Shown here in pieces: positions 10,296 through 23,017 of a stretch of 32,000 nt of DNA. A program made the translations under genes and the position numbers. A model generated the notes under the pieces. It saw only the letters and a program-made list of their open reading frames with translations, did not search any database and was not told where the DNA came from. Position 1 is the first letter of the stretch. The number at the start of each line of letters is the position of its first letter. The stretch comes from Chloroflexota bacterium (GTDB lineage: Bacteria; Chloroflexota; Anaerolineae; UBA2200): positions 640,441 to 672,440 of the forward strand of contig JACIWX010000001.1 in assembly GCA_014360755.1 (NCBI GenBank), given 5' to 3'.

Positions 10296-10337
10296 GTCCT
10301 TCACCTCCTATGTTTGCCACATACTTTGAGGCCAACT

Positions 10338-10415: not shown

Positions 10416-13091
10416 TCACCATTTAGCCACCTCTCCCTGCAGCTTGACAATGGCATAGCCCGCCCTGGCCACAATTTCCGGGATGGCGCGTACCAATGCG
10501 CGATCTTTCTCTTTCTCGTCTTCGGGAAGAGGTTCGTCACCAATTGCTACCGCCACAGCGGGCTCGAGCGCTGCTCGTTCTGCGGCAGATAATCGTCGCC
10601 AAGGCAGTATCGCTGGGTTGATTTTCTCCGCATCATTGCGCTGGGGACCATAGCGCCAACCGGCAGCAATCTTGGCACGCAACCAGCGCTCGTGCTCCAT
10701 TTCCGCCAATTTCTCCAGATCTGCTTCGGAAAAGGCAAATGTTGCCATGCTGCCGCGCACTGGAATCATGACACAACCAATGAAAGCTAACTTGCGCATA
10801 ATGTCCAACACATTGTCGCGGTTCTGCTGCTTGAGATGCTGAGGCAACTGCTCATACGGCATGGATGCTGCTTCAGGTGCGCCTGGCTTGCCCTCTTGGC
10901 TCGCACTATAGACCTCGTGCACGGCCGCCGCCAGCCTTTCCAGCAATTCACCGCTCAATTCAGGTTGTTGCACGAGTGCCAGAAATTCCAACCCGTTCAC
11001 GTGCAGGTTTAACTGTGCCTCAGAGGGCAGGCAGGAGCGCTCAAAGCGGCTTTTGCCCGCCAACATGCTCATGGCAATGATAGATTCCATAGAGCGTACC
11101 CCGTGTTTGTAGCTGCTGATGTGCAAAAAAGCGCGCAGAACACCAGGGTCTATGTTCAGTTTTCCCTTGCCATTCGGTTCTGTGAATAGATAATGGGCAT
11201 TCAGTGCGAACAGGCTGCGCAGCAGAATCGCCCGTCGGATCAGGAAGTAGGGATCGCCAGCAGGATACTTGACGTCCAATGGATTGGGCCCCATGATGTT
11301 TACATACCCTTTCAAGCGGCTCAAAAAATCTGGCCCCTTGGCATCCTTCGCACGCATCGCCACTTGGGCAAACTCCTCCATGCTGGTAGACGTGCCCCCT
11401 GCGAAGACAAAGATGGCTTGGCCAATGGGATGAGTAACCTGCCCCTCCTGAAAAGAGCCATCCTGCATGGGCGAGAGGAAATAACGCAGCCAGCCAAGCG
11501 CCTGTCCATCCAGTTGGCTGTCAAACTCGTCCCAGAATACCAGTGGCATCTTGCCCGACAAGCCCAAATCCCTTACCTGATGCAGGGCGCCAATCAACTC
11601 ATCTGGTGTGCGGAACTGGGATAGGTTAAAGGTGCGCACCTCAATGGCCTGTGGGTCATCGGGCCGGATAGACCTAGCTACCTGTTCCACGCCAAACGAT
11701 TTGCCCGAGCCCGGTGGCCCAAAGACAGCGATGGATATAGGGCGTTTTTGTGGCCGGCTGCAATACTCAGCAAGAACCGCGCGGATGCTGCGATAGCTCT
11801 CAATCTCACGCCGATCCAGGGTCAAGAGTTTGCCAAATTGCCCTAGTGGCACCCCCTGCAAAGCAGCTTCAACACCCTCTTCAACTACTTTGCGTGCCAC
11901 TTCGTCCAGGTTCTCTGGATAGCGCTCCTGTAAAATAGTCCAGAATGGTGTCACTAACCCAGTGCCACTCCCACGCTTTTCCACCAGGAACGAGATAGGA
12001 TTCGGTACCCTGACAGATGCCAGGAGTGGCTCTTCCTCTCCATCCATCAGCCTGGCCGCCACTGCATCTATCGGGAACGCCAGCCGGCAGGCATCTCGAG
12101 CGGAGCCTGGTCCGAGGTAGCCGCCCTGGTGTAAGAGGCGCATTGCAGCGACCCCGTTCTGGATGCCTTGTGTTAGGTCAGGTTGGGCCGGGTTACGCAG
12201 GATCTGCCAGGCAATAGCCGCTGTGAGGCAGGTAGTATAACCAACAACCCGTCCTGGGTATTGGAGATTCCAACCACCCTCAGTGAACCTGGGGTCAAAG
12301 AACAACGTGCATTCGAGTTCGCCTTGCTGACACGAGAGCAGCAACGCTCCTGCCGTATCGAAGGAAATAACAACATGCGCACAATCCGATAGGTCGCTTA
12401 CATGCGGGTTGTTCGTCAGTTCCCAGAACAGGTCCTGGGCTGTGCGTTCCCAAGACAATTCACGGCTAATCTGCACCTGCGTCAGGCGCAGGTCATCAAT
12501 CGTCATCACCATGATCAAACGCTGGGCACAGGTCTTGTGCAAGTGTTCCCACAGTGGCCCGCGAGCCACGGGGCGAGCCATTTTGACCAGAACCCACCCT
12601 TGACAGTTGCCTTGCGCCACGGCACGCGGCCACAGCTCAGGCCAATGGCGAAAGCCCAGATCCGCATCGTCCAGCACAACTAACATGGGATCCGACGGGT
12701 CATTGCGCACTTTCTGCCATGAAGCAGGTTCTGCCATTGGGCTGGGGTCTAATCCCAGATGGTCTTTTACACGCCAAGCCATCTCTTGGCTTTTCCCGCC
12801 CTTGAACTGATCCCATAGCGCATAGGAATGATGGAAGCGCTCGTCGCCAGGATGCATAGGTTCCCGAGGAGCATCCATTTGGCGTACAATATAGCCCGAT
12901 TGTTTTGCAACCACATGAATGAGATCAGCGAGCATCGCTGCCCCACCGCGATGCCAGCAAGCCTTGGTACGGTCGCCAGCCCACCATGCACGCAAGGGTG
13001 TATCGTTCCTAGCACTGCGAAAGCGTGCCAAATTCCAATCCATGGTCACGTCACCTGTGACGACGACCTCTTTACCTATTGTATTGTTCAT
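10416..13091 (-). CDS. Multidomain ATPase: N-terminal ribokinase/PfkB-like domain, central classical AAA+ ATPase, C-terminal tandem RyR-type repeats
   Basis: ATG at 13091 preceded by AGGAGGA (the ORF opens at 13163). The N-terminal PfkB-like pattern is VVVTGDVTMDWNL, GGAAMLADLI, LVVLDDADLG and VVISFDTAGALLL, but no GAGD anion-hole motif is present (VGYTTCLTAAIA). Walker A is VFGPPGSGKS (about 11700-11723) and Walker B is LVFWDEFD. The RyR repeat is EHERWLRAKIAAGWRYGP...ILPW...EDEKEKDRALVRAIPEIVARAGYAIVKL. Confidence 0.75.
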   Translation of the reverse strand: MNNTIGKEVVVTGDVTMDWNLARFRSARNDTPLRAWWAGDRTKACWHRGGAAMLADLIHVVAKQSGYIVRQMDAPREPMHPGDERFHHSYALWDQFKGGKSQEMAWRVKDHLGLDPSPMAEPASWQKVRNDPSDPMLVVLDDADLGFRHWPELWPRAVAQGNCQGWVLVKMARPVARGPLWEHLHKTCAQRLIMVMTIDDLRLTQVQISRELSWERTAQDLFWELTNNPHVSDLSDCAHVVISFDTAGALLLSCQQGELECTLFFDPRFTEGGWNLQYPGRVVGYTTCLTAAIAWQILRNPAQPDLTQGIQNGVAAMRLLHQGGYLGPGSARDACRLAFPIDAVAARLMDGEEEPLLASVRVPNPISFLVEKRGSGTGLVTPFWTILQERYPENLDEVARKVVEEGVEAALQGVPLGQFGKLLTLDRREIESYRSIRAVLAEYCSRPQKRPISIAVFGPPGSGKSFGVEQVARSIRPDDPQAIEVRTFNLSQFRTPDELIGALHQVRDLGLSGKMPLVFWDEFDSQLDGQALGWLRYFLSPMQDGSFQEGQVTHPIGQAIFVFAGGTSTSMEEFAQVAMRAKDAKGPDFLSRLKGYVNIMGPNPLDVKYPAGDPYFLIRRAILLRSLFALNAHYLFTEPNGKGKLNIDPGVLRAFLHISSYKHGVRSMESIIAMSMLAGKSRFERSCLPSEAQLNLHVNGLEFLALVQQPELSGELLERLAAAVHEVYSASQEGKPGAPEAASMPYEQLPQHLKQQNRDNVLDIMRKLAFIGCVMIPVRGSMATFAFSEADLEKLAEMEHERWLRAKIAAGWRYGPQRNDAEKINPAILPWRRLSAAERAALEPAVAVAIGDEPLPEDEKEKDRALVRAIPEIVARAGYAIVKLQGEVAKW

Positions 13092-13176
13092 TATTCCTCC
13101 TAATGATCTTGCGAAGCTCCTGCAAGCCATCGAGTGAGCAAGGGGTATGGTTCCCCGACACAAGCTATCCCCTTGA

Positions 13177-14373
13177 TCACTCGTATATCCCCGCCTCGAG
13201 CACGCTTACCCCTTCCATATCCAACAAAGTGTCCCGTCGGCTGATCTCTCCCCGGACGAGAACCCACAAAGTGTGCCGTTTGTCCGCAATGTCCACACCG
13301 ACAGGCAAGGCAGCCTTAATCTGCTGGATAAGAGGAGAACGAGTGGCTGCCAGGCACGCTGCACCAGTGCCCAGGCTATGTGGCCCAGCGAGAACCATCA
13401 CAAGGCGGCCGGGATAATCGGGATGTGGCCCACGGACAATAATCCCGTGATCCATAACGTGGATAAGAGCCCCTTCCGTGCCTAGATACTCAGTCCTGCC
13501 TTCCACCAAGTCCACCTGACCATTCTTCGTGCGGTAGAGAGCAGTCAGGTAGTCTCCTTCCTCCTTTTCGCCGGGAAATGCCCCCAGAGTCCAATTGGGT
13601 TCGCGACCCTTTTGCAAACGTTGCAACATTTCTCGGACGGGTGGATTGCTCTTTGGAGAGCCAATCAGGTAGAGGTTTAACGGTCGGCTCAGCAGGTCTG
13701 GTGGGCTATATTGTCCTGAGACCAATTCCACGCCTCTGCCCTCGCCCATGATACATCCAAAAGCGGAGATGAGGCCAAGCACTCCCAGATTGTCGCCAAA
13801 CGTCCGTTGGTCATAGGCTTGAGCGCGAATGCGGCTGTCCTTGCCAGGGTATCTGGGGCTGGCGACGATGTAGGCTGGTGTGGGTATGTCCGCTTCCAGC
13901 ATGTCCCGCAGCAAAGCAATCTGCGCATTCACACGCGAACGAAGGTGATCTGCCAGGCGTTTGTCAAAGACCTCCATTGCTTCCCGGCTGCCACTATAGG
14001 AAATTACTTCCCTTCCCTTCAGATCGGTAGGCACGTCAACGCCTTCCTCGACGAGCAGCAACAACGGTTTCTGTACACCTACTGCATAGCCCACCTCGTA
14101 GAATACATTGGCGCTCGGGGTGCTGATTTCAGCAATCACCAGTTCTGCCCTCTCGATCAGCAAATGGATCTTGGCCAGTAAATCGTGGCCAGCACCATGC
14201 ACATCGTCAGCACGAATAGCCGCAAGCCCCACCGCCTGACGCACCACTTCGCGGATGTGCACGAAAAAGTCCCATCGGGATTTATATGGCATCACCACGA
14301 AGACATAGGGCTTGCCCTGGGTAAGCTCTTCAACGATATGCCCAAGGGCATACGATGAACTCTCTTTCCTCAT
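13177..14373 (-). CDS. Nucleoside 2-deoxyribosyltransferase/TIR-like N-terminal domain fused to an uncharacterised ~235-aa C-terminal domain
   Basis: ATG at 14373 with AAGGAGGG 8 nt upstream. The N-terminal pattern is YVFVVMPYKSRWDFF...IRADDV...LIERAELVIAEISTPSANVFYEVGYAVGVQKPLLLLV. It resembles the NDT-type D/E-x-G-T-x-x-E-x-G-Y-A block with a conserved Glu. I recognised nothing in the C-terminal domain. Confidence 0.6.
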   Translation of the reverse strand: MRKESSSYALGHIVEELTQGKPYVFVVMPYKSRWDFFVHIREVVRQAVGLAAIRADDVHGAGHDLLAKIHLLIERAELVIAEISTPSANVFYEVGYAVGVQKPLLLLVEEGVDVPTDLKGREVISYSGSREAMEVFDKRLADHLRSRVNAQIALLRDMLEADIPTPAYIVASPRYPGKDSRIRAQAYDQRTFGDNLGVLGLISAFGCIMGEGRGVELVSGQYSPPDLLSRPLNLYLIGSPKSNPPVREMLQRLQKGREPNWTLGAFPGEKEEGDYLTALYRTKNGQVDLVEGRTEYLGTEGALIHVMDHGIIVRGPHPDYPGRLVMVLAGPHSLGTGAACLAATRSPLIQQIKAALPVGVDIADKRHTLWVLVRGEISRRDTLLDMEGVSVLEAGIYE

Positions 14374-14416
14374 GACCACTTCCCTCCTTATAGGGAGTGC
14401 CTCTAATATAGTTCCA

Positions 14417-17317
14417 CTACGAAGCCGAAGCGGATGGATTGCAAAGGTCTGTCAGATTCGGGCATGTGGACTGGCACGGTTCGTCCTCTAGGAACTGCCG
14501 CCATTCCTTCGGGGTGAGGTTGCGATTGGCGATGCGACAGGCGCGAGCCCGCCACGAATCTAGACTGGCATCCCAGAGGATGATAGTGCCATCTAGGCTG
14601 CCAGATAACAAAGTACCGCCGTCCGGACTAAAAACCACGCTGTCCACCGCAGACCTGTGGCCAATGAGCGGCTTGCCTATGGCATGACCGCTTTTCACAT
14701 CCCATAGGATAATGGAGTTGTCCTCTGTGGGCGGAGACACTCGGCCGCTGCCAGATGCCAATATTCGCCCATCAGGACTGAAAGCAATGCTCTGCACTCC
14801 TACACTATGGCCTTTGAGCGGGGAAAAGAGGGGTTGACCGGTCGTGACATCCCACAGGATAACGGTGGAATCCTCTCCGCCTGATGCTAGGATATGGCTA
14901 TCTGGGCTGAAAGCGACGCTGTTCACCCAGAAAGCATGCCCACGCCATGGTTGGCCACATGGCATCCGTGTAGCGACATCCCAAAGGATGACCGTTCTAT
15001 CCATGCTACAGGAAGCCAACATCTTCCCATCTGGGCTGAATGCCACACTCTGCACCTCTGCACTGTGACCGGTTAATGGCTCGCCCAGTGGTCGATGCGC
15101 GGAGACATCCCAGAGGATAATGGTTTTATCCGCACTAGAGGAAGCCAATATCTTTCCATCCGGGCTGAAAGCAACACCCATAACCGATCGCGTATGCCCT
15201 GTCAAGGGTTCGCCAATGGCTTGCTGGGTCATCACATCCCACAGCATGACGGTATTGTCCTCGCTGCCAGACGCTAACGTCTGACCATCCGGACTGAAAG
15301 CAAGGCTGGTTATGAAAGACCTGTGTCCCTTCAACGGCTGGCCAATGGGCTGCCCTGTCTTGGCGTCCCATAGGATGATGGCGTTGTCCCTTCTGCCTGA
15401 GGCGAACACTTTGCCATGTGGGCTAAAAGCCAGGCTCCCAGTATAACCTGTCTCGTTGATGACAAGCTGGGCCAGCGGTTGGGACACCGTTTGCTGAGTA
15501 TTCCACAACATGATCAGAGTCCCACTGCCAGCGACCAAGGTTGCTCCATCTGAACTGAAAGCTAAGGACGGCACTCCTTCGGCGTGCCCGGTCGCTAGTG
15601 TGCCCAACGACTGATGTGTCTGCGCATCCCACAGAGTTACCGTGCCATGTCCACTACCTGATGCCAACACTCTTCCGCTGGGATTGAAAGCCAGGCTGAA
15701 TACCCCAGCGTCGCGACCAGTGAGAGGAATCTCCCCTATTGCTCCCCCGGCTGAGACGTCCCATATCATAATGGCATCATCGGCATCCCCGCCCGACAAG
15801 AGTGTTTTCCCATCTGGGCTGAAGGCAAGGCTAGTCACATAATGGCTGTGCCCTTCCAGGCGTGGCATCAGCGGTTTGAGGGTGGCAACATTCCAAAGAA
15901 CAATGGTGCGATAGGCACCTGCTGCCAATATGCGCCCATCGGGGCTGAAAGCGACCTCCTGTACCATTCCCCAGTGAGGTCCGAGTGGCTGACCAAGTGG
16001 TTCTCCTGTTGCCACGTCCCATAGAATCACAGTCTGGTCATCGCTGCCGGACGCCAACATCTTCCCATCCGGACTGAACGCGACACAGAGCACATGGTGC
16101 TGATGCCCTTTGAGAGGAGCAAGCACAGGCAAGCCAGTGGCTACATTCCACAGGATGATGGAGCCATCGGAACTGCCGGACGCCAGCATCTGTCCATCCG
16201 GGCTAAAAGCCACGCTGTTCACCGTGCCAGTATGTCCGGTGAGATGCCGTCCACCGGATTCAGGGTGCGTCGTATCCCAGAGCATAACGCTGCCATCTGC
16301 ACTGCCTGAGGCCAGCGTGTTCCCCTTTGGACTGAAAGCCACGCTGAACACGGAAGAGGTGTGGCCATGGAGAAAAGCAGTGAGATTGGGGCTGTGTTCT
16401 AACGCATCGAGCAGGCTAGCTCTGGCTTCTACAGTATCTGCGATGCGGCTGGCCTCAACAGCCAATAGCAGCGCCAAGTCAAGCTGATCGGAAAGGTGAG
16501 TCTGCGCCTGCGCTGCCAATTGGCGGGACAAAGCGATACGGCGTTGTTGCTCTGCGTTATCTCTCTGCGCGATTGCTTCTGCTTGAGCCGTAGCGCGCAC
16601 CCTAGCTTCCTCAACCGCAATGGCTTTCGCCTCTAGTGCTTCATTGCGTTGACCCCAGGCAACCAATGCCAAAACAGCAGTCACTACCAAGCCCAACGTA
16701 ACCGCTGCAAGCGTGGCTCTTTGCCGGTTTATTGCTGCCTTGCGACTGGCAAGGATGTACTCCACCTGCAGTGGAGTGGGTGTAGGTTCCTTTGTCGCAC
16801 TTTTGCCCAACCATTCCTCTGCCTCCTGGAGATCCCTGCCGCGTAGCGCAAAACTGTTGTCCCGTCCCTTGCTATCCCACTCTGTAGCACGCACGAGGAA
16901 CCGAGTATGTGCACGCACCCAGTCGAGATCCGTTTGAATGGCTTGCACCAACTTATCGAAAGACTGCTGGAAATCATCCTGCTCGCGGAAGAATATCCAA
17001 TGGAGCGAGGCAATCTCAGGAGGCAGGTCTCTAGGATCAAGATCGTGCAGCAGCACCGGTACCAATCGCTTGTGGTTTCCGAGGCCGTGCTCGATTTCCT
17101 TGCGACAGACCTCTGATTGGACCGATGTCTGGCTGACAATAAACACCAGTGTATCGGCCCCTTCGATGGCGCGATATACCTCAGACTGCCAGTCTGCACT
17201 AGGGGGAATATCCTCCCAGTCAACCCATATCTCTAGATCCCTGGCACGCAGGGCATCGTAGAGCACACGCGCAAAAGCAATATCCTTCCGTGAGTAAGAG
17301 ATAAAGACGTCTGACAT
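14417..17317 (-). CDS. TIR-WD40 protein: N-terminal TIR, one hydrophobic helix, coiled coil, 14 WD40 repeats
   Basis: ATG at 17317 with AGGAGA 6 nt upstream. TIR blocks are DVFISYSRKD, IWVDWEDI, LVFIVSQTSVQSEVCRKEIEH and LVPVLL. The hydrophobic helix is LAAVTLGLVVTAVLALVAW. There are 14 units of about 42 aa with the pattern L-x-GH-x-x-x-V-x-S-VAFSPDG-x-x-LASGS-x-D-x-T-(V/I)-ILWD. The C-terminal tail (ACRIANRNLTPKEWRQFL...TCP) is typical of bacterial WD40 arrays. Confidence 0.9.
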   Translation of the reverse strand: MSDVFISYSRKDIAFARVLYDALRARDLEIWVDWEDIPPSADWQSEVYRAIEGADTLVFIVSQTSVQSEVCRKEIEHGLGNHKRLVPVLLHDLDPRDLPPEIASLHWIFFREQDDFQQSFDKLVQAIQTDLDWVRAHTRFLVRATEWDSKGRDNSFALRGRDLQEAEEWLGKSATKEPTPTPLQVEYILASRKAAINRQRATLAAVTLGLVVTAVLALVAWGQRNEALEAKAIAVEEARVRATAQAEAIAQRDNAEQQRRIALSRQLAAQAQTHLSDQLDLALLLAVEASRIADTVEARASLLDALEHSPNLTAFLHGHTSSVFSVAFSPKGNTLASGSADGSVMLWDTTHPESGGRHLTGHTGTVNSVAFSPDGQMLASGSSDGSIILWNVATGLPVLAPLKGHQHHVLCVAFSPDGKMLASGSDDQTVILWDVATGEPLGQPLGPHWGMVQEVAFSPDGRILAAGAYRTIVLWNVATLKPLMPRLEGHSHYVTSLAFSPDGKTLLSGGDADDAIMIWDVSAGGAIGEIPLTGRDAGVFSLAFNPSGRVLASGSGHGTVTLWDAQTHQSLGTLATGHAEGVPSLAFSSDGATLVAGSGTLIMLWNTQQTVSQPLAQLVINETGYTGSLAFSPHGKVFASGRRDNAIILWDAKTGQPIGQPLKGHRSFITSLAFSPDGQTLASGSEDNTVMLWDVMTQQAIGEPLTGHTRSVMGVAFSPDGKILASSSADKTIILWDVSAHRPLGEPLTGHSAEVQSVAFSPDGKMLASCSMDRTVILWDVATRMPCGQPWRGHAFWVNSVAFSPDSHILASGGEDSTVILWDVTTGQPLFSPLKGHSVGVQSIAFSPDGRILASGSGRVSPPTEDNSIILWDVKSGHAIGKPLIGHRSAVDSVVFSPDGGTLLSGSLDGTIILWDASLDSWRARACRIANRNLTPKEWRQFLEDEPCQSTCPNLTDLCNPSASAS
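14542..16381 (-). repeat. Tandem array of 14 WD40-coding units of about 126 bp (intragenic repeat)
   Basis: There is periodic protein-level repetition (VAFSPDGKMLASGS...TVILWDVATG occurs nearly verbatim several times). The many spurious plus-strand ORFs of similar sequence across this interval reflect the underlying DNA periodicity. Confidence 0.8.
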
Positions 17318-17759: not shown

Positions 17760-19553
17760 TCATGCTACCATCCGGCGTTGGTAGGGCAGCCGGTACACCT
17801 GCAACCCTGCCCGTGCGAGGAAGCGCGGCAACTCGCGCACTACGTTGCGATCCTTTTCCTTCTCCGCTTCGGGCAGTTCGTCCCAGGGAACCAGGATAGG
17901 GCTGGTCTTTCGTTCCATGTCTTTGGGACCTGGGGCATAGCTCCAGCCTGCGCGTAACCGCTCTTCCACAAAGCGCTGATGTTCCATTTGTGCCATCTTC
18001 TCGACTTCCTCTGCCGTGAACTCGAACCGTTCCGCATCCCAGTCAGTCAACGGTGCTATACCATAGCCTACTGCCTTTAATTTCACCAAAATATGATCCG
18101 CTTGACACCGGTTCGATTCTTTGATCTCCTCCGGCAATTCCTCCCAACATACCAAGGAAGGATTCGTCGCTGGTGTTTCACCTAACCCTTGCTGGTGCCG
18201 CACATAGCTCTCATGAATAGCACGTGCCAACACCTCATGGGTGCCGCCGAGAATCAGTTCAGGACTACAAGTACGATCTAGCAATCCAAAGGCATAGGGG
18301 TTGTCAAAACCATCTCCTTCCGCGCTACGCAGGAGCAGCGCCAACCCCGTCTCGTGAGCCATGCGCACCACAATAGGAATTCTTTGCCCTCTTAAACGCT
18401 GCAGTAACGTCAAGCCTGTCTTTAAGCCAAGGGCATCGTTGTCCAGGCATACATATACCGCTGTTACATCGCAGTGCCCATCAGAGCCGAGCAGAAAACC
18501 CGCTTGCTCAAACTCTGGCCAGAGGATATCCATTTGCAGGACAGCCAGTTGGCAGGCTTTCTCCAATTTCGGATAACGTAGGCAGAGCGACGCTACTTTG
18601 CGCTTTGCTTCTCGATCGATGATGCTGATCCGCAGGGAACCATAAGTTTGCGTATAGTTGGTCCACCAACTCCTTGCCATATGGACTACCAGGCTCTCCC
18701 CCATGCGCCCCAAGCCAACAATGAGCACATGAGGTTGTTGCATCAATACACCGTCTTCCTCATGGAAGCACGGATGTTCTTCCAACAAGAGCCGGGCTCC
18801 ACGGTCAAAGATATTGAACAGTTCCAACCGATATGAAGGGACTGGTGACACTTCGCGCTCACGGAGCAGGTGGTATAGCCGCGCATCCACAATGTGCACA
18901 AAGCAAGTCAATGGACGCCCTTGGCGCGAAGCAACCAGCTCTCGGACGTGCACAGCAACCTCGGCATTGGTGCTGTCATCCCCACAGACGGAGAACACGT
19001 ATTTCGCCCTCGGAACCCCTGCCCGACACAGAACCCCTCGATCCTTAGCATTCCCCAGGGTCACGATGATACCTTCTTCCTGACACAATGTGATGAAATC
19101 GTTGTTCTCATCCTGCTCGATAACGACCACGCGCTCTCCCTGCTGGAGGAACCCCCGCGCTAAGAGCAATCCCATGCGACCTAACCCACAGATCACCACA
19201 TGATCGCGGATGAAACGCAAGCGCAACAATTGCACTTGCTCATAAAAGATCGTTACAAAAGTCTGTATAACCGTATAAGCAGCTACAGCCGGTGCCAACA
19301 ATCGTGCCGCTTGCAACTCCCAGCCTATAGGCGGAGGAACTGCTCCAGATTGCAGGGGAAAAAGCTGCAAAGTGAGGTAGAAAAGATCCCAGAACGAGCG
19401 ATTCTCGTTTAGCGCAGCAAAATGCTTGGCAAATCCAACATACCCCAGGTACAACGTGGTTAGCCACAGCCCAATAATCAAAACCCCTCGGTACTGAGAC
19501 CAATTACGCCAAACAGTTTGGCGCCAGGCTCTATTGGCTACTCTTTTCATCAT
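17760..19553 (-). CDS. 2TM pore-like membrane domain + two Rossmann (TrkA-N/RCK-like) domains + C-terminal tandem RyR-type repeats
   Basis: The start at 19553 is 9 nt after the upstream stop. The membrane layout is TM1 GVLIIGLWLTTLYLGYVGFA, a pore-helix-like segment SFWDLFYLTLQLFPLQSG and TM2 LLAPAVAAYTVIQTFVTIF. The TrkA-N domain reads VVICGLGRMGLLLARGF..VVVIEQDE..GNAKD..GDDSTN. A second GxGxxG is VLIVGLGRMG. The RyR repeats are AIHESY...WEELPEEIKESNR and MEHQRFVEERLRAGWSYAP...LVPWDELPEAEKEKDRNVVRELPRFLARAGLQVYRL. Confidence 0.75.
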   Translation of the reverse strand: MMKRVANRAWRQTVWRNWSQYRGVLIIGLWLTTLYLGYVGFAKHFAALNENRSFWDLFYLTLQLFPLQSGAVPPPIGWELQAARLLAPAVAAYTVIQTFVTIFYEQVQLLRLRFIRDHVVICGLGRMGLLLARGFLQQGERVVVIEQDENNDFITLCQEEGIIVTLGNAKDRGVLCRAGVPRAKYVFSVCGDDSTNAEVAVHVRELVASRQGRPLTCFVHIVDARLYHLLREREVSPVPSYRLELFNIFDRGARLLLEEHPCFHEEDGVLMQQPHVLIVGLGRMGESLVVHMARSWWTNYTQTYGSLRISIIDREAKRKVASLCLRYPKLEKACQLAVLQMDILWPEFEQAGFLLGSDGHCDVTAVYVCLDNDALGLKTGLTLLQRLRGQRIPIVVRMAHETGLALLLRSAEGDGFDNPYAFGLLDRTCSPELILGGTHEVLARAIHESYVRHQQGLGETPATNPSLVCWEELPEEIKESNRCQADHILVKLKAVGYGIAPLTDWDAERFEFTAEEVEKMAQMEHQRFVEERLRAGWSYAPGPKDMERKTSPILVPWDELPEAEKEKDRNVVRELPRFLARAGLQVYRLPYQRRMVA

Positions 19554-19562
19554 CTCAATTCT

Positions 19563-21068
19563 TCAGTGGCAAATTTGTGGGTCTACCCGATATAGCTTGT
19601 TCGTTTCGTTGTGGATCACCCACAGAAAACGCCCATCCCATGCCAGTCCTTTCCATGCCCACCAAACTGGCGCCGAAGGGAGATCAATCCTGCAAACACC
19701 TTGCATGGCTTGATTCACCTTCGTCAAATGATTGTCAACTAGCACCCAAAGATGTGTTCCGTCCCATACCAACCCAGATGCTCGGCTAGAAGGAAATATC
19801 CCAAAGTCCATAGCATAAGAATCCAACGTCTTTATCTCATTGCCCATCGGCCCAAGCTTGTATATCGCGCCCTCTGAAGAAGTCACCCACAAGTATTGTC
19901 CATCCCACGCAATATTTGTCGGACTGCCAAGGAAATCTTTCGGCATTTCGAAAAGAGTGGTTGTGGCGCCGGTTTGATCCTTAAGGCTAATGCCTTGATC
20001 ATCCAAAGCCCAAAACTGCTTTCGTGATTCATCCCAAGCCAACTCTCCCGGCGGCCAAAGGCATTCTTGCTCAGAAATGCGAAAACGGCTTTCCTCTTCT
20101 ACCAGTTCTAGCCTTACCTGCCCAGAAACAAATCGCACACACAAAGCCGAACCATCATAGATAACGCGAACGGGGTCATTGAGAGGCAACCTGTACGCCT
20201 TTATTGCCTCTGGTGTAGCCATGCCCACTGGCGTAGCCGTATAAATGGGGGCTGCAATAGGCATAACTGTCAATGTAGGAATCCGTGTGAAAGCACGAGT
20301 AGGACCTGCAGTTACTGTAGCAACAGGGGTAAAGGTAGCCATTTTCATCGCCGTAGGACTGTGCTTGGGAACCGATGTCGGTGAAGACACACTTGTAGCC
20401 GCCGTAGGGGAATACGTAGCTAGATTGGGGCTGGTCATCGCAGTAGATAATTGGAGCAATTTCCATGCTAGAAACACGATGACAGTGCCTTGAACCGTAA
20501 ATGCTACCGCTGCAATCCAGAACCATTTATGCTGCCACGGCGGCTTGGCTTCTTTATGTGGCACAACTGTTATCTCAGGTTGCCTTGCTCTAGGCAATGC
20601 GCTTAATTTCACCCCACCTGGCTCGGGCTCTCGGCTCTCACCCTTGCCCTGCGCCTCAATACCAAGGGCGTGCAAACCGCTGATGATGCGGGGAATAATT
20701 GGGGCAATTCCTTCAGGGGGAATGGTGATGGAAGAGGCGCTGCCCACCGCTTGCCGCCATAATGGCTGACGAATCTGAAACTGGCTATGGGTTACCTGGC
20801 TGAGCACAGGAATAAAAGGTTTGCCAGCTTCGTGAGCACGTACTACCTCACTGCTCACCTGGTTGGAGCCAAGCGAATGCACCGAGATAATGAGCACAAC
20901 AGCATGGGATTGTTCGATCGCTTGTCCTGTTTGCACGAGATAGGAGAGACCAGGGACACTATCCCGCTCATAGTACCAAACAGTATACCCAACTGCCTCC
21001 AGGCCTTGCGCAATCTCCAATGCAACTTGAGCATCTTCTTCCACATGGCTGATAAAAATATCGGCCAT
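19563..21068 (-). CDS. TIR domain protein: N-terminal TIR, one TM helix, S/T/P-rich linker, C-terminal beta-propeller-like domain
   Basis: ATG at 21068 with GAAGGAG 6 nt upstream (the ORF opens at 21104). TIR blocks are DIFISHVEEDAQVA, VWYYERD, AVVLIISVHSLGSNQVSSEVVRA and PFIPVL. The TM helix is WFWIAAVAFTVQGTVIVFLAWKLL. C-terminal repeats are IAWDGQYLWVTSSEGAIYKL, LVWDGTHLWVLVDNHLTKV and LAWDGRFLWVIHNETNKLYRV. Confidence 0.8.
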   Translation of the reverse strand: MADIFISHVEEDAQVALEIAQGLEAVGYTVWYYERDSVPGLSYLVQTGQAIEQSHAVVLIISVHSLGSNQVSSEVVRAHEAGKPFIPVLSQVTHSQFQIRQPLWRQAVGSASSITIPPEGIAPIIPRIISGLHALGIEAQGKGESREPEPGGVKLSALPRARQPEITVVPHKEAKPPWQHKWFWIAAVAFTVQGTVIVFLAWKLLQLSTAMTSPNLATYSPTAATSVSSPTSVPKHSPTAMKMATFTPVATVTAGPTRAFTRIPTLTVMPIAAPIYTATPVGMATPEAIKAYRLPLNDPVRVIYDGSALCVRFVSGQVRLELVEEESRFRISEQECLWPPGELAWDESRKQFWALDDQGISLKDQTGATTTLFEMPKDFLGSPTNIAWDGQYLWVTSSEGAIYKLGPMGNEIKTLDSYAMDFGIFPSSRASGLVWDGTHLWVLVDNHLTKVNQAMQGVCRIDLPSAPVWWAWKGLAWDGRFLWVIHNETNKLYRVDPQICH

Positions 21069-21241
21069 TGGCAGCTCCTTCTGTACCATTTTGGGTACTG
21101 ACAACCACAGCTAAAGGGGACGCAAAAGTATCACTGTTTTGAACTAGATACATCTATACAGGTATGTCAACTTGTTGTAGTATACAACCAAAAACCGGAT
21201 TGAGCAAGAGTTCTATACAAGTATCTAATTCAATCTATTTG

Positions 21242-21253
21242 TAGTAGTAGTAG
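21242..21253 (+). repeat. TAGTAGTAGTAG trinucleotide tract (DnaA-trio-like)
   Basis: Four perfect tandem TAG units sit at the edge of the AT-rich stretch inside the putative origin. Confidence 0.4.
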
Positions 21254-21395
21254 GATGGGTTGAAAAGGGGGAAAAAGTTTCCTAGGTACTAGGTTTTTTC
21301 TTATTAGAGCACAATTCGTAGGGCGTGCTGTGAAAAGTACTACCATAGATAGGGAAGCAAGTAATGGAGCAGAAGAGCGGTTTGTGCACAGGCAT

Positions 21396-21404
21396 TGTGG
21401 ATAA
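21396..21404 (-). promoter_or_regulatory. DnaA box, perfect consensus (TGTGGATAA on the plus strand)
   Basis: Exact 9/9 match to TTATCCACA on the minus strand. Confidence 0.7.
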
Positions 21405-21568
21405 ATACAGGACAATGTTTAATAGCGTGAAAAACGTATTGATCATGAAATGAGACGCTAGAAATTGAGGGGGGTGTGATATTGTACCCTATAGTTAGGA
21501 GCACACTGCATGGGGAAGGACAAGACAAAAACATTCCAGAGGTGGATTTATCCCCAGACAGGGGATAG

Positions 21569-21577
21569 TTATCCACA
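21569..21577 (+). promoter_or_regulatory. DnaA box, perfect consensus TTATCCACA
   Basis: Exact 9-mer, 21 bp from the next box in the same orientation, just past the dnaA stop codon. Confidence 0.7.
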
Positions 21578-21589
21578 ATAATTAGGCAC

Positions 21590-21598
21590 TTATCCACA
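21590..21598 (+). promoter_or_regulatory. DnaA box, perfect consensus TTATCCACA
   Basis: Exact 9-mer, 10 nt from the dnaA stop codon. Confidence 0.7.
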
Positions 21599-21607
21599 GA
21601 TTGATAG

Positions 21608-23017
21608 CTAGTGAGTCACAGGCACGCGCTCTTTGTACAATCGCTCTCTAATAGCCATCACATCACGGCGCAACTGGTCATCCTCTTCTATACCAACCTG
21701 AATTTTCTCACAGCCGTAGAGCACAGTCGTATGATCGCGTCCTCCAAGAATTTCACCGATTTGGGGCAATGAGCAACCAAGTTCTTCCTTCAACAGGTAC
21801 ATTGCCACCTGGCGGGGAAAGGCAATAGCATGGCTGCGCTGTCGGCTCTTCAACAGGTGTAGTTCCAAGCCGTAGTATTCACACACTGTCTCCAATACTT
21901 GTTCTGCTGTGATTGAATCGGATCTTGTCAGGATTCCCTTCAGAGCTGCGGTTGCCATTTCTATTGTAAGAGGAGACTTGGTCAATACCGCGTTCGCCAC
22001 CACCCGATTAAGGGCTCCTTCCAGCTCGCGCACGTTGCTGGGAAACTTTCCGGCAATATAGTCAATTACTTCTGGTGGAATTTGGACGGACTGTAGTTCG
22101 GCTTTTGCACGCAGGATAGCAATACGGGTTTCCAAGTCAGGGGGTTGGATGTCCGCAATTAGGCCTTGCTCGAATCGGGATTGGAGGCGTTTTTCCAGTG
22201 GCTTGATGGCGCGTGGCGGGCGATCGCTGGACATCACGATCTGCTTGCCTGCTTGGTACAGAGTGTTGAAGGTATGGAAAAATTCTTCTTGTGTGCTTTC
22301 TTTGCCGGCGATGAATTGGATGTCATCAATAAGCAGGATATCTACATGGTTGCGGTATTTGGCGCGAAATTCTTCAGTGCTTTGTGTGCGAATGGCATTG
22401 ATGAGTTCATTCGTAAAGGTTTCAGAGGACACATACAACACAGCAGGGGTCAAAGCCAGAGCTGCGTTGCCAATTGCCTGCAGTAGATGGGTCTTGCCTA
22501 ATCCTACTCCCCCATAGATAAAGAGGGGATTGTATTTCTTCCCCGGATTTTCAGCAACGGCTCTAGCAGCAGCGTGTGCCAAACTATTGGAGTTGCCGAC
22601 GACGAATGTTTCAAAGGTAAGCCTTGGGTTTAAGCCCGTATTCACAAGCAATTTTTGGGCATGGCTGGTCTGTGGTTTTGTCCAGGCAACGCGGGTTGGG
22701 AAACTAGGGGTTTCCTCATCCTGAGTCTCTAGCTCTAACAGGATATTTTCCTGTGCGGCCCTTTTGCTGCGCCGCGGATGGACAACAAACTTGATCTCTA
22801 CGGTCTGGCCGACAATGCCTATTAGGGTACGCTTAATGGTCGTGAGTAGGCGGTTTTCTAACCAATCTTTGGCATAGGCATTGTGTACTCCGATGACAAA
22901 TGTGCCGTCTTCATAGCTCAGCACATGGGTGTTTTTGACCCAGGTATCAAAAGTGGACTTGGTTAACTGCAATTGTAACTCGCCGAGTACTGCTTGCCAC
23001 GCTTGCTCAGCATTCAT
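21608..23017 (-). CDS. dnaA: Chromosomal replication initiator protein DnaA
   Basis: Unmistakable DnaA sequence: MNAEQAWQAVLGELQLQL..., Walker A GGVGLGKTHLL, Walker B ILLIDDIQF, SSDRPP, NVRELEGAL, and the C-terminal DNA-binding helix-turn-helix FPRQVAMYLLKEE...IGEILGGRDHTTVLYGCEKI. The ATG at 23017 has GGGAGA upstream. The ORF extension to 23122 is not DnaA-like. Confidence 0.97.
   Translation of the reverse strand: MNAEQAWQAVLGELQLQLTKSTFDTWVKNTHVLSYEDGTFVIGVHNAYAKDWLENRLLTTIKRTLIGIVGQTVEIKFVVHPRRSKRAAQENILLELETQDEETPSFPTRVAWTKPQTSHAQKLLVNTGLNPRLTFETFVVGNSNSLAHAAARAVAENPGKKYNPLFIYGGVGLGKTHLLQAIGNAALALTPAVLYVSSETFTNELINAIRTQSTEEFRAKYRNHVDILLIDDIQFIAGKESTQEEFFHTFNTLYQAGKQIVMSSDRPPRAIKPLEKRLQSRFEQGLIADIQPPDLETRIAILRAKAELQSVQIPPEVIDYIAGKFPSNVRELEGALNRVVANAVLTKSPLTIEMATAALKGILTRSDSITAEQVLETVCEYYGLELHLLKSRQRSHAIAFPRQVAMYLLKEELGCSLPQIGEILGGRDHTTVLYGCEKIQVGIEEDDQLRRDVMAIRERLYKERVPVTH

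What the first reader, a model, noticed from the sequence alone, without database searches (positions are those of the whole stretch)
19563..21068. Toll-like-receptor-style topology in a bacterium: cytoplasmic N-terminal TIR, single TM helix, extracytoplasmic beta-propeller-like domain
Seen in sequence: the TIR domain covers about residues 2-110 of the 21068-start protein. A basic stretch follows (HKEAKPPWQHK), then one 23-residue hydrophobic helix and a 90-aa S/T/P/A-rich linker. The C-terminal region of about 200 aa has repeats of about 45 aa built on (A/V)WDG-x-x-LWV...(I/L)Y(K/R)(L/V). No signal peptide is present. By the positive-inside rule the TIR is cytoplasmic and the repeat domain is outside. 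Established knowledge: characterised bacterial TIR defence proteins are overwhelmingly cytosolic. The arrangement of an ectodomain sensor, one TM helix and an intracellular TIR is the hallmark of animal TLR/IL-1R receptors. Inference: this protein may sense an extracellular or periplasmic cue, such as phage adsorption, cell-wall damage or a neighbouring filament cell. It would then signal by TIR oligomerisation. It is the first gene of the cluster, and a paralogous architecture closes the cluster at 8103-10295.
Basis: partly seen in the sequence, partly recalled or inferred. Interest (0 to 1): 0.65.

Follow-up and report, generated by a model that had tools for sequence, protein, structure and literature searches.

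The report
Membrane-anchored bacterial TIR receptor with RyR partner
An uncultured oil-field Anaerolineae bacterium encodes a single-pass membrane protein with a TIR immune-type enzyme domain inside the cell and a five-bladed propeller outside; it belongs to a large receptor-like family I could not find described, whose genes repeatedly sit next to genes for RyR-domain proteins, a domain recently shown to bind TIR-made cyclic ADP-ribose signals.

Summary
The ORF at 19563-21068 (-) encodes 501 aa. It has an N-terminal TIR_2 domain with the catalytic-type Glu74, a basic juxtamembrane stretch and one hydrophobic helix (181-209). A Ser/Thr/Pro/Ala stalk follows, then a five-bladed beta-propeller (289-501) that resembles bacterial glutaminyl cyclase in fold only.

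N-in/C-out topology is not proven. Five indirect lines support it:
- The positive-inside rule holds across 94 homologues.
- A Cys pair is near-invariant, and a second pair co-occurs.
- The propeller's relatives are secreted-type proteins.
- The same ectodomain also sits behind a TM helix after Ser/Thr kinase, bacterial Death-like and EAD7 domains.
- The protein has no signal peptide.

The gene is not a one-off: 109 of the 120 closest TIR homologues have the same TIR-TM-variable-ectodomain layout, with LRR, WD40, TPR or lectin-like ectodomains.

The main new point is its partner. Nine bp downstream lies a GsuK-like 2TM/RCK channel-type protein with a RyR Repeat12 domain. TIR and RyR genes are linked in both directions across many lineages. 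Two 2026 preprints show that RyR domains bind cADPR-type TIR products.

My best reading is a surface sensor whose clustered TIR makes an NAD-derived signal that RyR-domain partners read or quench. The function is untested. I rate it a new variant of a known kind.

The parts
19563..21068 (-). Gene for the 501-aa TIR-TM-propeller protein (stop codon 19563-19565)
   Evidence: ORF list. The same 501-aa product is called on 9 public contigs. Full-length orthologues have 41-68% identity.
21075..21080 (-). Shine-Dalgarno-like AAGGAG, 6 nt upstream of ATG 21068
   Evidence: Read directly from the upstream sequence.
20649..21068 (-). Cytoplasmic TIR domain, residues 1-140
   Evidence: Pfam TIR_2 E=2e-16. 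AF2 pLDDT about 90. Foldseek hits to AbTir and the SPARTA TIR. Identity to orthologues is 60-86%.
20847..20849 (-). Codon of Glu74, the candidate catalytic glutamate (motif S-x-Q-V-x-x-E-V)
   Evidence: Invariant in alignment A3. In the profile-to-PDB alignment it lines up with the Glu of BtTir 'WTEYE' and Cat1 'WCWDE'. A single-sequence phmmer alignment had placed the AbTir Glu at Gln70; the profile alignment resolves this.
20529..20648 (-). Disordered, basic juxtamembrane segment, residues 141-180 (ends HKEAKPPWQHK)
   Evidence: pLDDT below 50 over 142-179. K/R enrichment on the N side of the helix holds family-wide: 3.56 against 1.31, with N>C in 79 proteins and N<C in 8.
20442..20528 (-). 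Single transmembrane helix, residues 181-209 (hydrophobic core 182-205)
   Evidence: It is the only Kyte-Doolittle peak above 1.6. AF2 models a helix over 181-209. A helix at the equivalent position occurs in 109 of 120 TIR homologues.
20205..20441 (-). Ser/Thr/Pro/Ala-rich stalk, residues 210-288
   Evidence: 62% S/T/P/A in the first 60 residues after the hydrophobic segment. Disordered in the model. Low sequence identity but the same composition in orthologues.
19566..20204 (-). Extracytoplasmic five-bladed beta-propeller, residues 289-501, with WDGxxLW repeats. Cys459/Cys500 are near-invariant and Cys310/Cys336 co-occur.
   Evidence: AF2 pLDDT about 90, with the strand pattern of five blades. 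The best PDB fold match is Xanthomonas glutaminyl cyclase 3mbr, E=4e-9, TMt 0.61. The family search found 2958 representatives at E<1e-3.
17760..19553 (-). Partner gene, 9 bp downstream: a 2TM pore-like module, two RCK (TrkA_N) domains and a RyR Repeat12 domain
   Evidence: Pfam TrkA_N and RyR. AF2 model with pLDDT 83. Foldseek matches the GsuK channel at E about 1e-12 over about 530 columns, then MthK, Slo1 and human RyR3 Repeat12. Linkage to TIR genes is shown.
14417..17317 (-). Island member: TIR, one hydrophobic helix (201-219), a coiled coil and 14 WD40 repeats
   Evidence: WD40 by Pfam. N-terminal TIR by my HMM (E=1.9e-14) and by PADLOC ThsB/TIR models. Helix. Sequence.
13177..14379 (-). 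Island member: soluble 400-aa protein with a CAP12/Pycsar-type TIR-like (DRHyd-like) N-terminal domain
   Evidence: Weak Pfam hits to CAP12-PCTIR_TIR and Nuc_deoxyrib_tr. PADLOC 'Effector TIR' E=1.9e-8. It is 66% identical to the gene directly upstream of orthologue P0005 in L007.
10416..13163 (-). Island member: AAA/STAND-like NTPase with a C-terminal RyR domain (about 891-915 aa)
   Evidence: Pfam RyR E=3e-15 plus weak AAA hits. This type of RyR protein lies directly upstream of TIR genes in many metagenome loci.
8103..10304 (-). Island member: TIR, TPR, TM helix (317-335), S/T/P stalk, WDG-type propeller-like domain and an extra C-terminal module
   Evidence: Pfam TIR_2 and TPR. TM helix and sequence. 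Distant paralogy to the target.
21396..21598 (.). DnaA-box cluster between dnaA (21608-23122, -) and the TIR gene: three perfect TTATCCACA and one 1-mismatch box. Probably oriC.
   Evidence: Pattern search: 14 matches against 6 expected, with the perfect ones clustered here. The cumulative GC-skew minimum lies at about 20-21 kb. dnaA was identified by Pfam.

Best explanation
The gene encodes a single-pass membrane receptor with its N-terminus in the cytoplasm and its C-terminus outside.

Shown or strongly supported. An enzyme-type TIR domain with the catalytic-position Glu74 lies in the cytoplasm. One TM helix anchors it. A flexible Ser/Thr/Pro/Ala stalk carries a disulfide-stabilised five-bladed propeller through the wall of a Chloroflexota cell. 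These cells are regarded as single-membrane (my own knowledge), so 'outside' here means the cell surface. The propeller is a portable sensor module. In other proteins it sits behind a TM helix after Ser/Thr kinase, bacterial Death-like (bDLD1), EAD7 or other TIR domains.

Inferred. Binding of an external or cell-surface ligand clusters the ectodomains and brings the TIR domains together. TIR NADases in general need self-association to form their active site. The TIR then cleaves or cyclises NAD+. The product, an ADPR or cADPR-isomer type molecule, is read or quenched by RyR Repeat12 domains of co-encoded proteins. The first of these is the GsuK-like RCK channel-type protein that starts 9 bp downstream. 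This would turn a surface event into a change in membrane ion flux, or into NAD+ loss leading to growth arrest. The ligand and the physiological role are unknown; candidates are phage or competitor defence, or kin or filament signalling.
For: Architecture
- TIR_2 E=2e-16.
- AF2 model: TIR 1-140, helix 181-209 and propeller 289-501 at pLDDT about 90, with disordered linkers.
- Fold matches to AbTir, the SPARTA TIR and glutaminyl cyclase.
- Glu74 is invariant and aligns with the Glu of BtTir and Cat1.

Topology
- One hydrophobic helix.
- K+R count of 3.56 on the N side against 1.31 on the C side in 94 homologues, with N>C in 79 and N<C in 8.
- Cys459/Cys500 are present in 32 of 33 family members, Cys310/Cys336 co-occur, and most members have an even number of cysteines.
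- Distant relatives of the propeller are DUF6923/SGL/glutaminyl-cyclase-type proteins with PKD and T9SS modules.
- The same ectodomain follows a TM helix in receptor-kinase, bDLD1 and EAD7 proteins.

Family
- 109 of the 120 nearest TIR homologues have a helix after the TIR, with LRR, WD40, TPR, FGE-sulfatase, PQQ or CARDB ectodomains.

RyR link
- The gap to the TrkA_N-RyR gene is 9 bp.
- The order dnaA, TIR-TM-propeller, TrkA_N-RyR is kept in relatives whose TIR proteins are only 43-44% identical.
- Of 80 TrkA_N-RyR loci from many phyla, 21 have a TIR gene within 10 kb. TIR gene density is 7.0 per 100 kb within 1 kb, against 1.7 per 100 kb at 1-10 kb.
- Pfam confirms the adjacent genes as TIR-TM-LRR, -TPR, -WD40 and -lectin-like proteins.
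- In the reverse direction, 27 of 79 TIR loci hold a RyR-domain ORF. Sixteen of these end within 120 bp upstream of the TIR gene on the same strand.
- RyR Repeat12 domains bind or cleave 2'cADPR, 3'cADPR and cADPR with nanomolar affinity (PMC13232231; bioRxiv 10.64898/2026.06.04.730250).
- The partner models as a GsuK-like channel with an added RyR3-like domain.
Against: - No experiment supports the topology, NADase activity, ligand binding or channel function.
- No dedicated topology predictor (such as DeepTMHMM) was available.
- More distant orthologues lack a RyR neighbour. P0008 lies among housekeeping genes. P0005 lies beside the CAP12-like TIR gene instead. The RyR link is therefore frequent but not obligatory.
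- About three quarters of TrkA_N-RyR loci show no TIR within the available flanks.
- Part of the dnaA-proximal synteny is simple vertical inheritance within one lineage.
- The partner lacks a TVGYG-type K+ selectivity filter, so ion conduction is unproven.
- By the residue spacing given in the preprints, the middle ligand-contact His of RyR appears replaced by Ser/Thr in this family. This is my own reading and is not an aligned test.
- Contigs from the libraries labelled metatranscriptomic cover genes and spacers evenly, so they do not show expression.
Confidence: 0.55

Rival explanations
1. The receptor architecture is the same, but the TIR is itself the terminal effector. Ligand-induced clustering simply burns NAD+, giving abortive or dormancy-type arrest. 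The RyR-domain neighbours are not downstream sensors. They act as buffers or terminators, as sponges or glycosidases that remove stray cADPR-type products and prevent self-activation.
For: - Many bacterial TIR effectors act by NAD+ depletion (my own knowledge; also PMC8195603).
- The characterised RyR-domain proteins are a glycosidase and sponges, not receptors.
- The catalytic dyad residues of RyDEP (His and Asp) seem to have counterparts in repeat 2 of the neighbour (His525, Asp568). This rests on motif spacing and is an inference.
- Some orthologues work without a RyR neighbour.
Against: - The RyR domain is fused to a channel-type and RCK gating architecture, and to an AAA/STAND NTPase. These are typical signal-receiving output modules rather than simple sponges.
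- Tight operon linkage in both directions is more typical of a signal-effector pair.
Confidence: 0.2
2. It is a non-immune environmental or cell-envelope sensor, comparable to receptor Ser/Thr kinases. Its TIR works mainly as a protein-protein interaction scaffold, or as a regulator of NAD-linked physiology, for example K+/ion homeostasis through the RCK channel. Its position next to dnaA/oriC would reflect a core role rather than a defence role.
For: - The same ectodomain is used by Ser/Thr kinases.
- The island is chromosomal, lies at dnaA/oriC, and is vertically conserved in the lineage.
- PADLOC finds no known defence system, only TIR-domain matches.
- RCK domains of GsuK-type channels bind NAD+/ADP (entry titles).
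Against: - The TIR keeps the catalytic-position Glu in all orthologues.
- The ectodomain is also fused to bDLD1 and EAD7. These adaptor domains were described from conflict and programmed-death systems of multicellular bacteria (PMC8195603, PMC7159879).
- The island holds four TIR-type genes and variable end genes, TIR-FGE-sulfatase in L091 against TIR-TPR here. This is typical of diversifying conflict loci.
- The ectodomain diverges faster than the TIR.
Confidence: 0.15
3. The hydrophobic segment is not membrane-spanning, or the orientation is reversed. The whole protein would then be cytosolic, like classical TIR-WD40 or TIR-TPR sensors, and the TLR-like picture would be an artefact of hydropathy reading.
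For: - The window protein's hydropathy peak (2.05) is at the low end of the family range.
- The TM helix has pLDDT of only about 70-85.
- No dedicated topology predictor or experiment was available.
Against: - The helix is conserved in position and character but not in sequence in all orthologues.
- There is strong K/R asymmetry across the helix.
- The S/T/P stalk, the conserved and co-varying cysteine pairs and the secreted-type relatives of the propeller all point outside.
- Kinase-TM-propeller relatives have the canonical receptor-kinase layout.
Confidence: 0.05

Closest known systems
Animal Toll-like and IL-1 receptors
   Same: [quoted passage not shown] One conserved TIR type is paired with many different ectodomains. 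Some family members (for example P0041 and the L020 TIR gene) even carry LRR ectodomains.
   Different: - The chain order is inverted: N-terminal TIR with a signal-anchor against an N-terminal ectodomain with a signal peptide.
- The ectodomain here is a five-bladed propeller, not LRR or Ig.
- The TIR is the bacterial TIR_2 type with a catalytic-position Glu, not a scaffold TIR that recruits MyD88-type adaptors.
- Nothing indicates common descent of the whole architecture.
Bacterial TIR NADases and signal generators (Thoeris ThsB, AbTir/BtTir, Cat1, SPARTA TIR-APAZ)
   Same: The TIR fold and the catalytic-position Glu are shared. The expected chemistry is NAD+ cleavage or cyclisation after self-association. 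The genomic pairing with a protein that carries a domain able to bind cADPR isomers mirrors the Thoeris logic.
   Different: - Those proteins are soluble and sense intracellular events, whereas this one is membrane-anchored with an external domain.
- No ThsA (SIR2 or Macro/SLOG) partner is present, and PADLOC calls no Thoeris system.
- The putative reader is a RyR Repeat12 domain. So far that domain is characterised only in phage counter-defence proteins and animal RyR channels.
Bacterial receptor Ser/Thr kinases (PknB-type: cytoplasmic kinase, one TM helix, external sensor)
   Same: The type II single-pass layout with a Pro/Thr/Ser-rich stalk is identical. The very same propeller domain is the external module of kinase proteins P0186, P0187 and P0212.
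   Different: The cytoplasmic output is a TIR domain instead of a kinase.
Bacterial and plant glutaminyl cyclase, five-bladed propeller (PDB 3mbr, 3nol, 2iwa); Pfam DUF6923 and SGL propellers
   Same: These are the best fold matches (E=4e-9, TMt 0.61). The distant sequence relatives of the propeller carry DUF6923, SGL and Glu_cyclase_2 annotations.
   Different: Identity is 12-18%. The window protein has no Pfam hit to Glu_cyclase_2 or DUF6923 at E<=0.01. The cyclase active site was not examined, so an enzymatic role is neither shown nor needed.
RyR Repeat12 domain proteins (phage RyDEP and RyR Tad; animal RyR1-3) and GsuK/MthK RCK-gated channels, for the partner gene
   Same: Pfam RyR matches at E=3e-17. 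The fold matches human RyR3 Repeat12 with 24% identity, and the GsuK channel over pore plus tandem RCK domains. Phage RyR domains bind 2'/3'cADPR and cADPR.
   Different: The cellular protein is membrane-embedded and lacks a K+ selectivity-filter motif. Ligand binding by this RyR domain is untested. RyR domains of cellular prokaryotic proteins were not characterised in the two preprints I read.

Membership tests
TIR domain superfamily (Pfam TIR_2, PF13676) | Significant match to the family profile, above the curated cutoff | tested here: met
   61 bits against a 28-bit cutoff, E=2e-16, residues 4-92.
TIR domain superfamily (Pfam TIR_2, PF13676) | Flavodoxin-like TIR fold | tested here: met
   AF2 pLDDT about 90 for residues 1-140. 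Foldseek hits AbTir 7uxu_A (TMt 0.76) and 8i87_G.
Enzymatic TIR NADases | Conserved glutamate at the catalytic position of helix alphaC | tested here: met
   Glu74 is invariant in 12 orthologues and relatives. It aligns with the Glu of BtTir 'WTEYE' and Cat1 'WCWDE' in the profile alignment. The conserved Trp four residues before it is Gln70 here.
Enzymatic TIR NADases | NAD+ cleavage or cyclisation activity | not testable with these tools
   This needs a biochemical assay.
Toll-like / IL-1 receptor family | N-terminal LRR or Ig ectodomain with a signal peptide, and a C-terminal cytoplasmic TIR (type I orientation) | tested here: not met
   The TIR is N-terminal. The protein has no signal peptide, the ectodomain is a C-terminal propeller, and no LRR or Ig domain is present.
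Toll-like / IL-1 receptor family | One TM helix separating an external sensor from a cytoplasmic TIR | tested here: inconclusive
   Hydropathy, the positive-inside rule, cysteine pairs and comparative architectures all agree. No experimental topology or dedicated predictor was available.
Thoeris defence system | A ThsB-type TIR gene together with a ThsA effector (SIR2 or Macro/SLOG sensor of gcADPR) | tested here: not met
   PADLOC gives only weak ThsB/TIR domain matches, and none of the six island proteins matches ThsA. Pfam shows no SIR2, Macro or SLOG domain.
Glutaminyl cyclase (Pfam Glu_cyclase_2, PF05096) | Profile match and cyclase active site on a five-bladed propeller | tested here: not met
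   No Pfam hit at E<=0.01 for the C-terminal domain. The similarity is in fold only, at 12-18% identity. Active-site residues were not examined.
Bitopic type II (N-in/C-out) membrane receptors of the receptor-kinase kind | No signal peptide, a single TM helix with positive charge on the N side, a low-complexity stalk, and a C-terminal domain shared with bona fide receptor kinases | tested here: met
   Searches cover the helix and charge. Searches cover the stalk. Searches show the same domain in Pkinase-TM-propeller proteins.
RyR Repeat12 domain proteins (for the partner at 17760-19553) | Profile match and Repeat12 fold | tested here: met
   Pfam RyR at 62.9 bits against a 27.4-bit cutoff. Foldseek matches human RyR3 Repeat12 with 24% identity and TMt about 0.55.
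RyR Repeat12 domain proteins (for the partner at 17760-19553) | Binding of cADPR-type ligands | not testable with these tools
   This is known only for phage homologues. In repeat 2, His525, Phe528 and Lys567-Asp568 fit the published residue spacing, but the middle His position is Ser/Thr. This is my own reading and is not an alignment to the phage proteins.

The most novel reading that the evidence does not exclude
TIR-TM-ectodomain proteins and RyR-domain proteins together form a widespread prokaryotic signalling axis that I could not find described. In it, a cell-surface receptor makes a cADPR-type nucleotide with its cytoplasmic TIR. A RyR Repeat12 domain on a GsuK-like channel, or on an AAA/STAND NTPase, reads that nucleotide to open an ion pathway or trigger arrest. 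This would be a bacterial counterpart, and possibly the evolutionary source, of the animal link between cADPR and ryanodine-receptor channels, combined with a Toll-like outside-in receptor logic.
Probability: 0.3. Interest if true: 0.85.

Novelty: new variant of a known kind. Interest (0 to 1): 0.66.

Why it matters
Characterised bacterial TIR systems sense events inside the cell. A large family of TIR proteins with external sensor domains would mean that bacteria also use outside-in TIR signalling, a logic so far tied to animal Toll-like and IL-1 receptors. The modular swapping of TIR, Death-like, EAD7 and kinase heads on one ectodomain points the same way.

The repeated pairing with RyR-domain proteins offers a concrete test. 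The RyR domain was shown in 2026 to bind TIR-made cyclic ADP-ribose isomers. The question is whether cellular RyR domains are receptors for TIR products, and whether the long-debated link between cADPR and ryanodine receptors in animals has a prokaryotic precedent.

The proteins are small and modular. The key assays are standard: topology reporters, NADase products, nucleotide binding and ion flux.

Tried and rejected
- **PADLOC and NCBIfam scans of the island**. No known defence system or named family appeared, only TIR-domain-level matches.
- **Literature searches** for bacterial TIR with a TM helix or ectodomain, and reading of the TIR survey PMC7075850 and the two Aravind-lab papers. I found no description of this architecture. 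The library is incomplete, so this is absence of evidence only.
- **Single-sequence phmmer against PDB**. It aligned the AbTir catalytic Glu with Gln70. I rejected this in favour of Glu74 after the profile alignment and the canonical S-x-W/Q-x-x-x-E spacing.
- **Metatranscriptome contigs**. Coverage is flat over genes and spacers, and contigs carry no strand information. This is uninformative about expression.
- **First related-loci run with alignment A1**. It failed because the ectodomain-only rows removed conserved TIR columns. I repeated it with A3.
- **The six genes as one obligatory operon.** I considered and rejected this. Distant orthologues are solitary or sit beside a different island member, and the island's end genes vary.
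- **The propeller as a membrane-anchored glutaminyl cyclase.** I considered this. There is no profile match and identity is only 12-18%, so I keep it only as a fold resemblance.
- **Disulfide geometry.** I could not check it because model coordinates are not exposed. The cysteine argument rests on conservation and co-occurrence only.
Full report
**1. The observation**

The window has one long ORF at 19563-21104 on the minus strand. The ATG at 21068 gives a 501-aa protein. It is preceded by AAGGAG six bases upstream. Gene callers used this start on nine public contigs, and orthologues start at the same Met.

Pfam places a TIR_2 domain at residues 4-92 (E=2e-16, 61 bits against a 28-bit cutoff) and finds nothing for the rest of the protein. 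Hydropathy shows a single peak at residues 183-201 (2.05), preceded by HKEAKPPWQHK.

An AlphaFold2 model built on 15 homologues gives the following:
- a confident TIR fold over residues 1-140, at pLDDT about 90;
- disorder over 142-179;
- one long helix over 181-209;
- disorder over 209-285;
- a confident all-beta domain over 289-501 whose strands group into five four-stranded blades.

The Y/W-D-G/E motif sits at residues 304, 345, 388, 435 and 478.

**2. What the domains are**

Foldseek against the PDB returns Xanthomonas glutaminyl cyclase, a five-bladed propeller, as the best hit (3mbr, E=4e-9, TM-score 0.61 on the target). Other propellers follow. For the N-terminus it returns the SPARTA TIR-APAZ and AbTir TIR domains.

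The catalytic glutamate needed a second look. A single-sequence alignment was ambiguous. A profile of 12 relatives aligned Glu74 with the Glu of BtTir 'WTEYE' and Cat1 'WCWDE', and Gln70 took the usual Trp position. Glu74 is invariant in that alignment. The TIR is therefore of the enzyme type and could be catalytically competent. Activity itself is untested.

**3. Topology**

I had no dedicated predictor, so the case rests on several independent indirect lines.
- Among the 120 closest homologues, 94 have exactly one strong helix after the TIR. K+R counts in the 15 residues on either side of it are 3.56 (N side) against 1.31 (C side). The N side is richer in 79 proteins and poorer in 8.
- The segment after the helix is a Ser/Thr/Pro/Ala-rich stalk that is disordered in the model. 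By my own knowledge, such stalks are typical of wall-spanning regions in single-membrane bacteria.
- The propeller has a Cys pair (459 and 500) present in 32 of 33 family members. A second pair (310 and 336) is present together or absent together. Most members have an even number of cysteines. This is the usual signature of disulfides in an oxidising compartment.
- Distant relatives of the propeller are DUF6923/SGL/glutaminyl-cyclase-type proteins that carry PKD and T9SS-sorting modules, so they are secreted-type proteins.
- An exhaustive search with the 212-aa domain found 2958 representatives. In the full-length matches that retain sequence upstream of the domain, the domain lies C-terminal to a hydrophobic helix; three are bare-domain records. 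The cytoplasmic head in front of the helix varies. It can be one of several different TIR subfamilies, a Ser/Thr protein kinase (P0186, P0187, P0212), bacterial Death-like domain 1 (P0198), effector-associated domain 7 (P0190), multi-TM modules or a bare anchor.

Kinase, one TM helix and an external sensor is the established layout of bacterial receptor kinases. I take N-in/C-out as very likely, about 0.85-0.9, but not proven.

**4. It is a family, not a curiosity**

The TIR of this protein is 55-70% identical to the TIR of more than a hundred other proteins. Their C-terminal parts are LRR, WD40, TPR, PQQ and SGL propellers, FGE-sulfatase (lectin-like), CARDB, 3-keto-disaccharide-hydrolase-like and others. 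In 109 of the 120, a hydrophobic helix follows the TIR. Labels where present are Chloroflexota, Anaerolineae or Anaerolineales.

The window itself carries three such proteins:
- the target;
- TIR, helix, coiled coil and WD40 repeats at 14417-17317;
- TIR, TPR, helix, stalk and a WDG-type propeller at 8103-10304.

The last is only a distant paralogue of the target, with 38% identity in the TIR and 28% in the ectodomain.

Against orthologues, the TIR is 60-86% identical and the ectodomain 38-75%. The juxtamembrane, helix and stalk regions keep their character but not their sequence. This pattern is typical of single-pass receptors.

**5. Surroundings**

The gene is the first after dnaA (21608-23122). 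The spacer between them holds three perfect DnaA boxes, and the cumulative GC-skew minimum lies nearby. The island therefore starts at the probable replication origin.

Downstream on the same strand lie:
- a TrkA_N-RyR protein, after a 9-bp gap;
- the TIR-WD40 protein;
- a soluble 400-aa protein with a CAP12/Pycsar-type TIR-like domain;
- an AAA/STAND-like protein that ends in a RyR domain;
- the TIR-TPR-TM-propeller protein.

The order dnaA, TIR-TM-propeller, TrkA_N-RyR recurs in relatives whose TIR proteins are 68%, 44% and 43% identical. In a 410-kb contig the island is kept, but its first gene is reduced to a 239-aa ectodomain-only ORF and its last genes differ.

More distant orthologues behave differently. 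One sits alone among housekeeping genes. One sits directly behind a 66%-identical copy of the 400-aa TIR-like gene. The six genes are therefore not an obligatory operon, but island members do keep finding each other.

The sequence comes from oil-field and oil-production metagenomes, with relatives in hot springs. Contigs from libraries labelled metatranscriptomic cover everything evenly and say nothing about expression.

**6. The RyR link**

Two 2026 preprints bear on this. They show that RyR Repeat12 domains (Pfam PF02026) of phage proteins bind 1''-2' and 1''-3' cyclic ADPR and cADPR with nanomolar affinity. One of them cleaves these molecules. The ligand-contact residues are reported as conserved across the family (PMC13232231; bioRxiv 10.64898/2026.06.04.730250). 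These molecules are the products of TIR enzymes. That made the two RyR proteins in the island worth testing as partners.

The TrkA_N-RyR family is large. It has more than 1100 close homologues and occurs in at least 561 species genomes from many phyla.

I built a TIR HMM from 96 homologues and applied it to 80 TrkA_N-RyR loci. It found a TIR gene within 10 kb in 21 loci. At E<1e-10, ten TIR genes lie within 1 kb (7.0 per 100 kb), against 13 in the remaining 773 kb (1.7 per 100 kb). Most of the linked TIR proteins have a helix 160-220 residues after the start of the TIR. Pfam confirmed TIR-TM-LRR, -TPR, -WD40 and -3-keto-disaccharide-hydrolase-like proteins, and short TIR-only proteins, in Dehalococcoidia, Anaerolineales and MAGs labelled Eubacteriales, Gemmatimonadota or deltaproteobacterial.

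In the reverse direction, 79 metagenome loci were picked by the TIR motif. Many of them are short contigs, yet 27 (34%) contain a RyR-domain ORF. In 16 of them that ORF ends within 120 bp upstream of the TIR gene on the same strand. Most are of the roughly 900-aa AAA-RyR type, the same arrangement as 10416-13163 followed by 8103-10304 in the window.

The linkage is therefore reciprocal, strongest at adjacency, and seen beyond one lineage. It is not universal.

**7. What the partner looks like**

The model of the TrkA_N-RyR protein (pLDDT 83) has TM1, a short pore-type helix, a loop and TM2. Two Rossmann-type RCK domains and a helical RyR module follow.

Its best PDB matches are the full-length GsuK channel (E about 1e-12, about 530 aligned columns), the TrkA ring, MthK and Slo1. 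For the C-terminus the match is human RyR3 Repeat12, at 24% identity. The loop where a K+ channel has TVGYG reads LFPLQSGAVPPP, so ion selectivity, and conduction itself, are open.

**8. Most likely mechanism**

Shown or strongly supported: a bitopic protein with an enzyme-type TIR inside and a portable propeller sensor outside. It belongs to a large modular family and is genomically coupled to RyR-domain proteins.

Inferred: an external ligand clusters the ectodomains, and the TIR domains self-associate and act on NAD+. By established knowledge, TIR NADases such as SARM1, AbTir and plant TNLs need self-association for activity. The nucleotide product is then read by the RyR domain of the co-encoded channel-type protein or of the AAA-RyR protein, or is removed by it.

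I give the whole chain 0.55. The main rival (0.2) keeps the receptor but makes the TIR the terminal NAD+-depleting effector and the RyR proteins buffers. A housekeeping-sensor reading gets 0.15. A non-membrane reading gets 0.05.

**9. Comparison with what is known**

It works like a Toll-like receptor in layout only. The chain order is inverted, the ectodomain fold differs, and the TIR is the catalytic bacterial type. It is not a member of that family.

It is a bona fide TIR_2 protein. It is not a Thoeris system as defined, because there is no ThsA. Its nearest architectural relatives are bacterial receptor Ser/Thr kinases, some of which use the same ectodomain.

Its relation to the conflict systems of multicellular bacteria (PMC7159879, PMC8195603) is suggested by the bDLD1 and EAD7 heads on the same ectodomain. 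In the passages I read, those papers do not describe TIR-TM-ectodomain receptors or a TIR-RyR pairing. Four literature searches found no description of either. The library is incomplete, so the novelty is provisional.

**10. Verdict**

The finding is real, and its topology reading is largely right. It is also more specific, because it has a RyR partner.

I class it as a new variant of a known kind: TIR signalling proteins in a receptor format with a candidate new reader domain. Interest is 0.66.

The most novel reading still open is a prokaryotic axis running from a surface receptor through a TIR and a cADPR-type signal to a RyR-domain channel. I give it a probability of about 0.3, and it would deserve about 0.85 interest if true.

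Noticed in passing
window 21105-21607 (boxes at 21396-21404, 21548-21556, 21569-21577, 21590-21598): Three perfect DnaA boxes and one 1-mismatch box cluster in the AT-rich spacer between the 3' end of dnaA and the start of the TIR gene. The cumulative GC-skew minimum lies nearby, at about 20-21 kb. This is probably oriC, so the TIR/RyR island begins at the replication origin, and the TIR gene's promoter region overlaps the DnaA boxes.
   Followed up: partly
window 14417-17317 (-): The 966-aa '14 x WD40' protein also has an N-terminal TIR domain and a hydrophobic helix at residues 201-219. A coiled coil follows the helix instead of an S/T/P stalk. Proteins of about 1000 aa with the same TIR and helix layout recur next to TrkA_N-RyR genes in L058, L073, L077 and L081; Pfam confirms the WD40 part only for L081. 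Whether its WD40 propellers are outside the membrane is open.
   Followed up: partly
window 13177-14379 (-); L007 8737-9939: The soluble 400-aa protein has a CAP12/Pycsar-type TIR-like N-terminal domain. It is 66% identical to the gene that lies directly upstream (a gap of about 60 bp) of the TIR-TM-propeller orthologue P0005, in a genome where no RyR gene is nearby. This is a second conserved companion of the target.
   Followed up: partly
window 10416-13163 (-) followed by 8103-10304 (-); metagenome loci L096, L099, L100, L105, L106, L113, L114, L118, L119, L122, L123, L127, L128, L138, L139, L169: An AAA/STAND-like protein of about 900 aa that ends in a RyR domain lies directly upstream of a TIR gene on the same strand in 16 of 79 TIR loci. 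This is a recurrent two-gene unit, distinct from the TrkA_N-RyR pairing.
   Followed up: partly
L091 9166-9885 (protein P0123, 239 aa): In a 410-kb contig with the same dnaA-proximal island, the position of the TIR-TM-propeller gene is occupied by an ORF that encodes only the ectodomain. This could be a decayed or split copy. The island's last genes there are TIR-TIR-FGE-sulfatase and another TIR protein instead of TIR-TPR-propeller.
   Followed up: no
proteins P0198 and P0190: The same propeller ectodomain is fused through a TM helix to bacterial Death-like domain 1 and to effector-associated domain 7. These have a 'death-receptor-like' layout in bacteria.
   Followed up: partly
window 17760-19553 (-), residues 50-80 of the product: The GsuK-like pore module has LFPLQSGAVPPP where K+ channels have the TVGYG filter. 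The surrounding residues (D56, Y59, Q63, L64, G70, W78) are invariant or nearly so in 18 homologues. This suggests a conserved but non-canonical pore loop.
   Followed up: no
window 23498-25477 (+): A 659-aa protein has three CarboxypepD_reg repeats and a DUF4015 putative glycosyl-hydrolase domain. It is syntenic with dnaA in the relatives and seems unrelated to the island.
   Followed up: no
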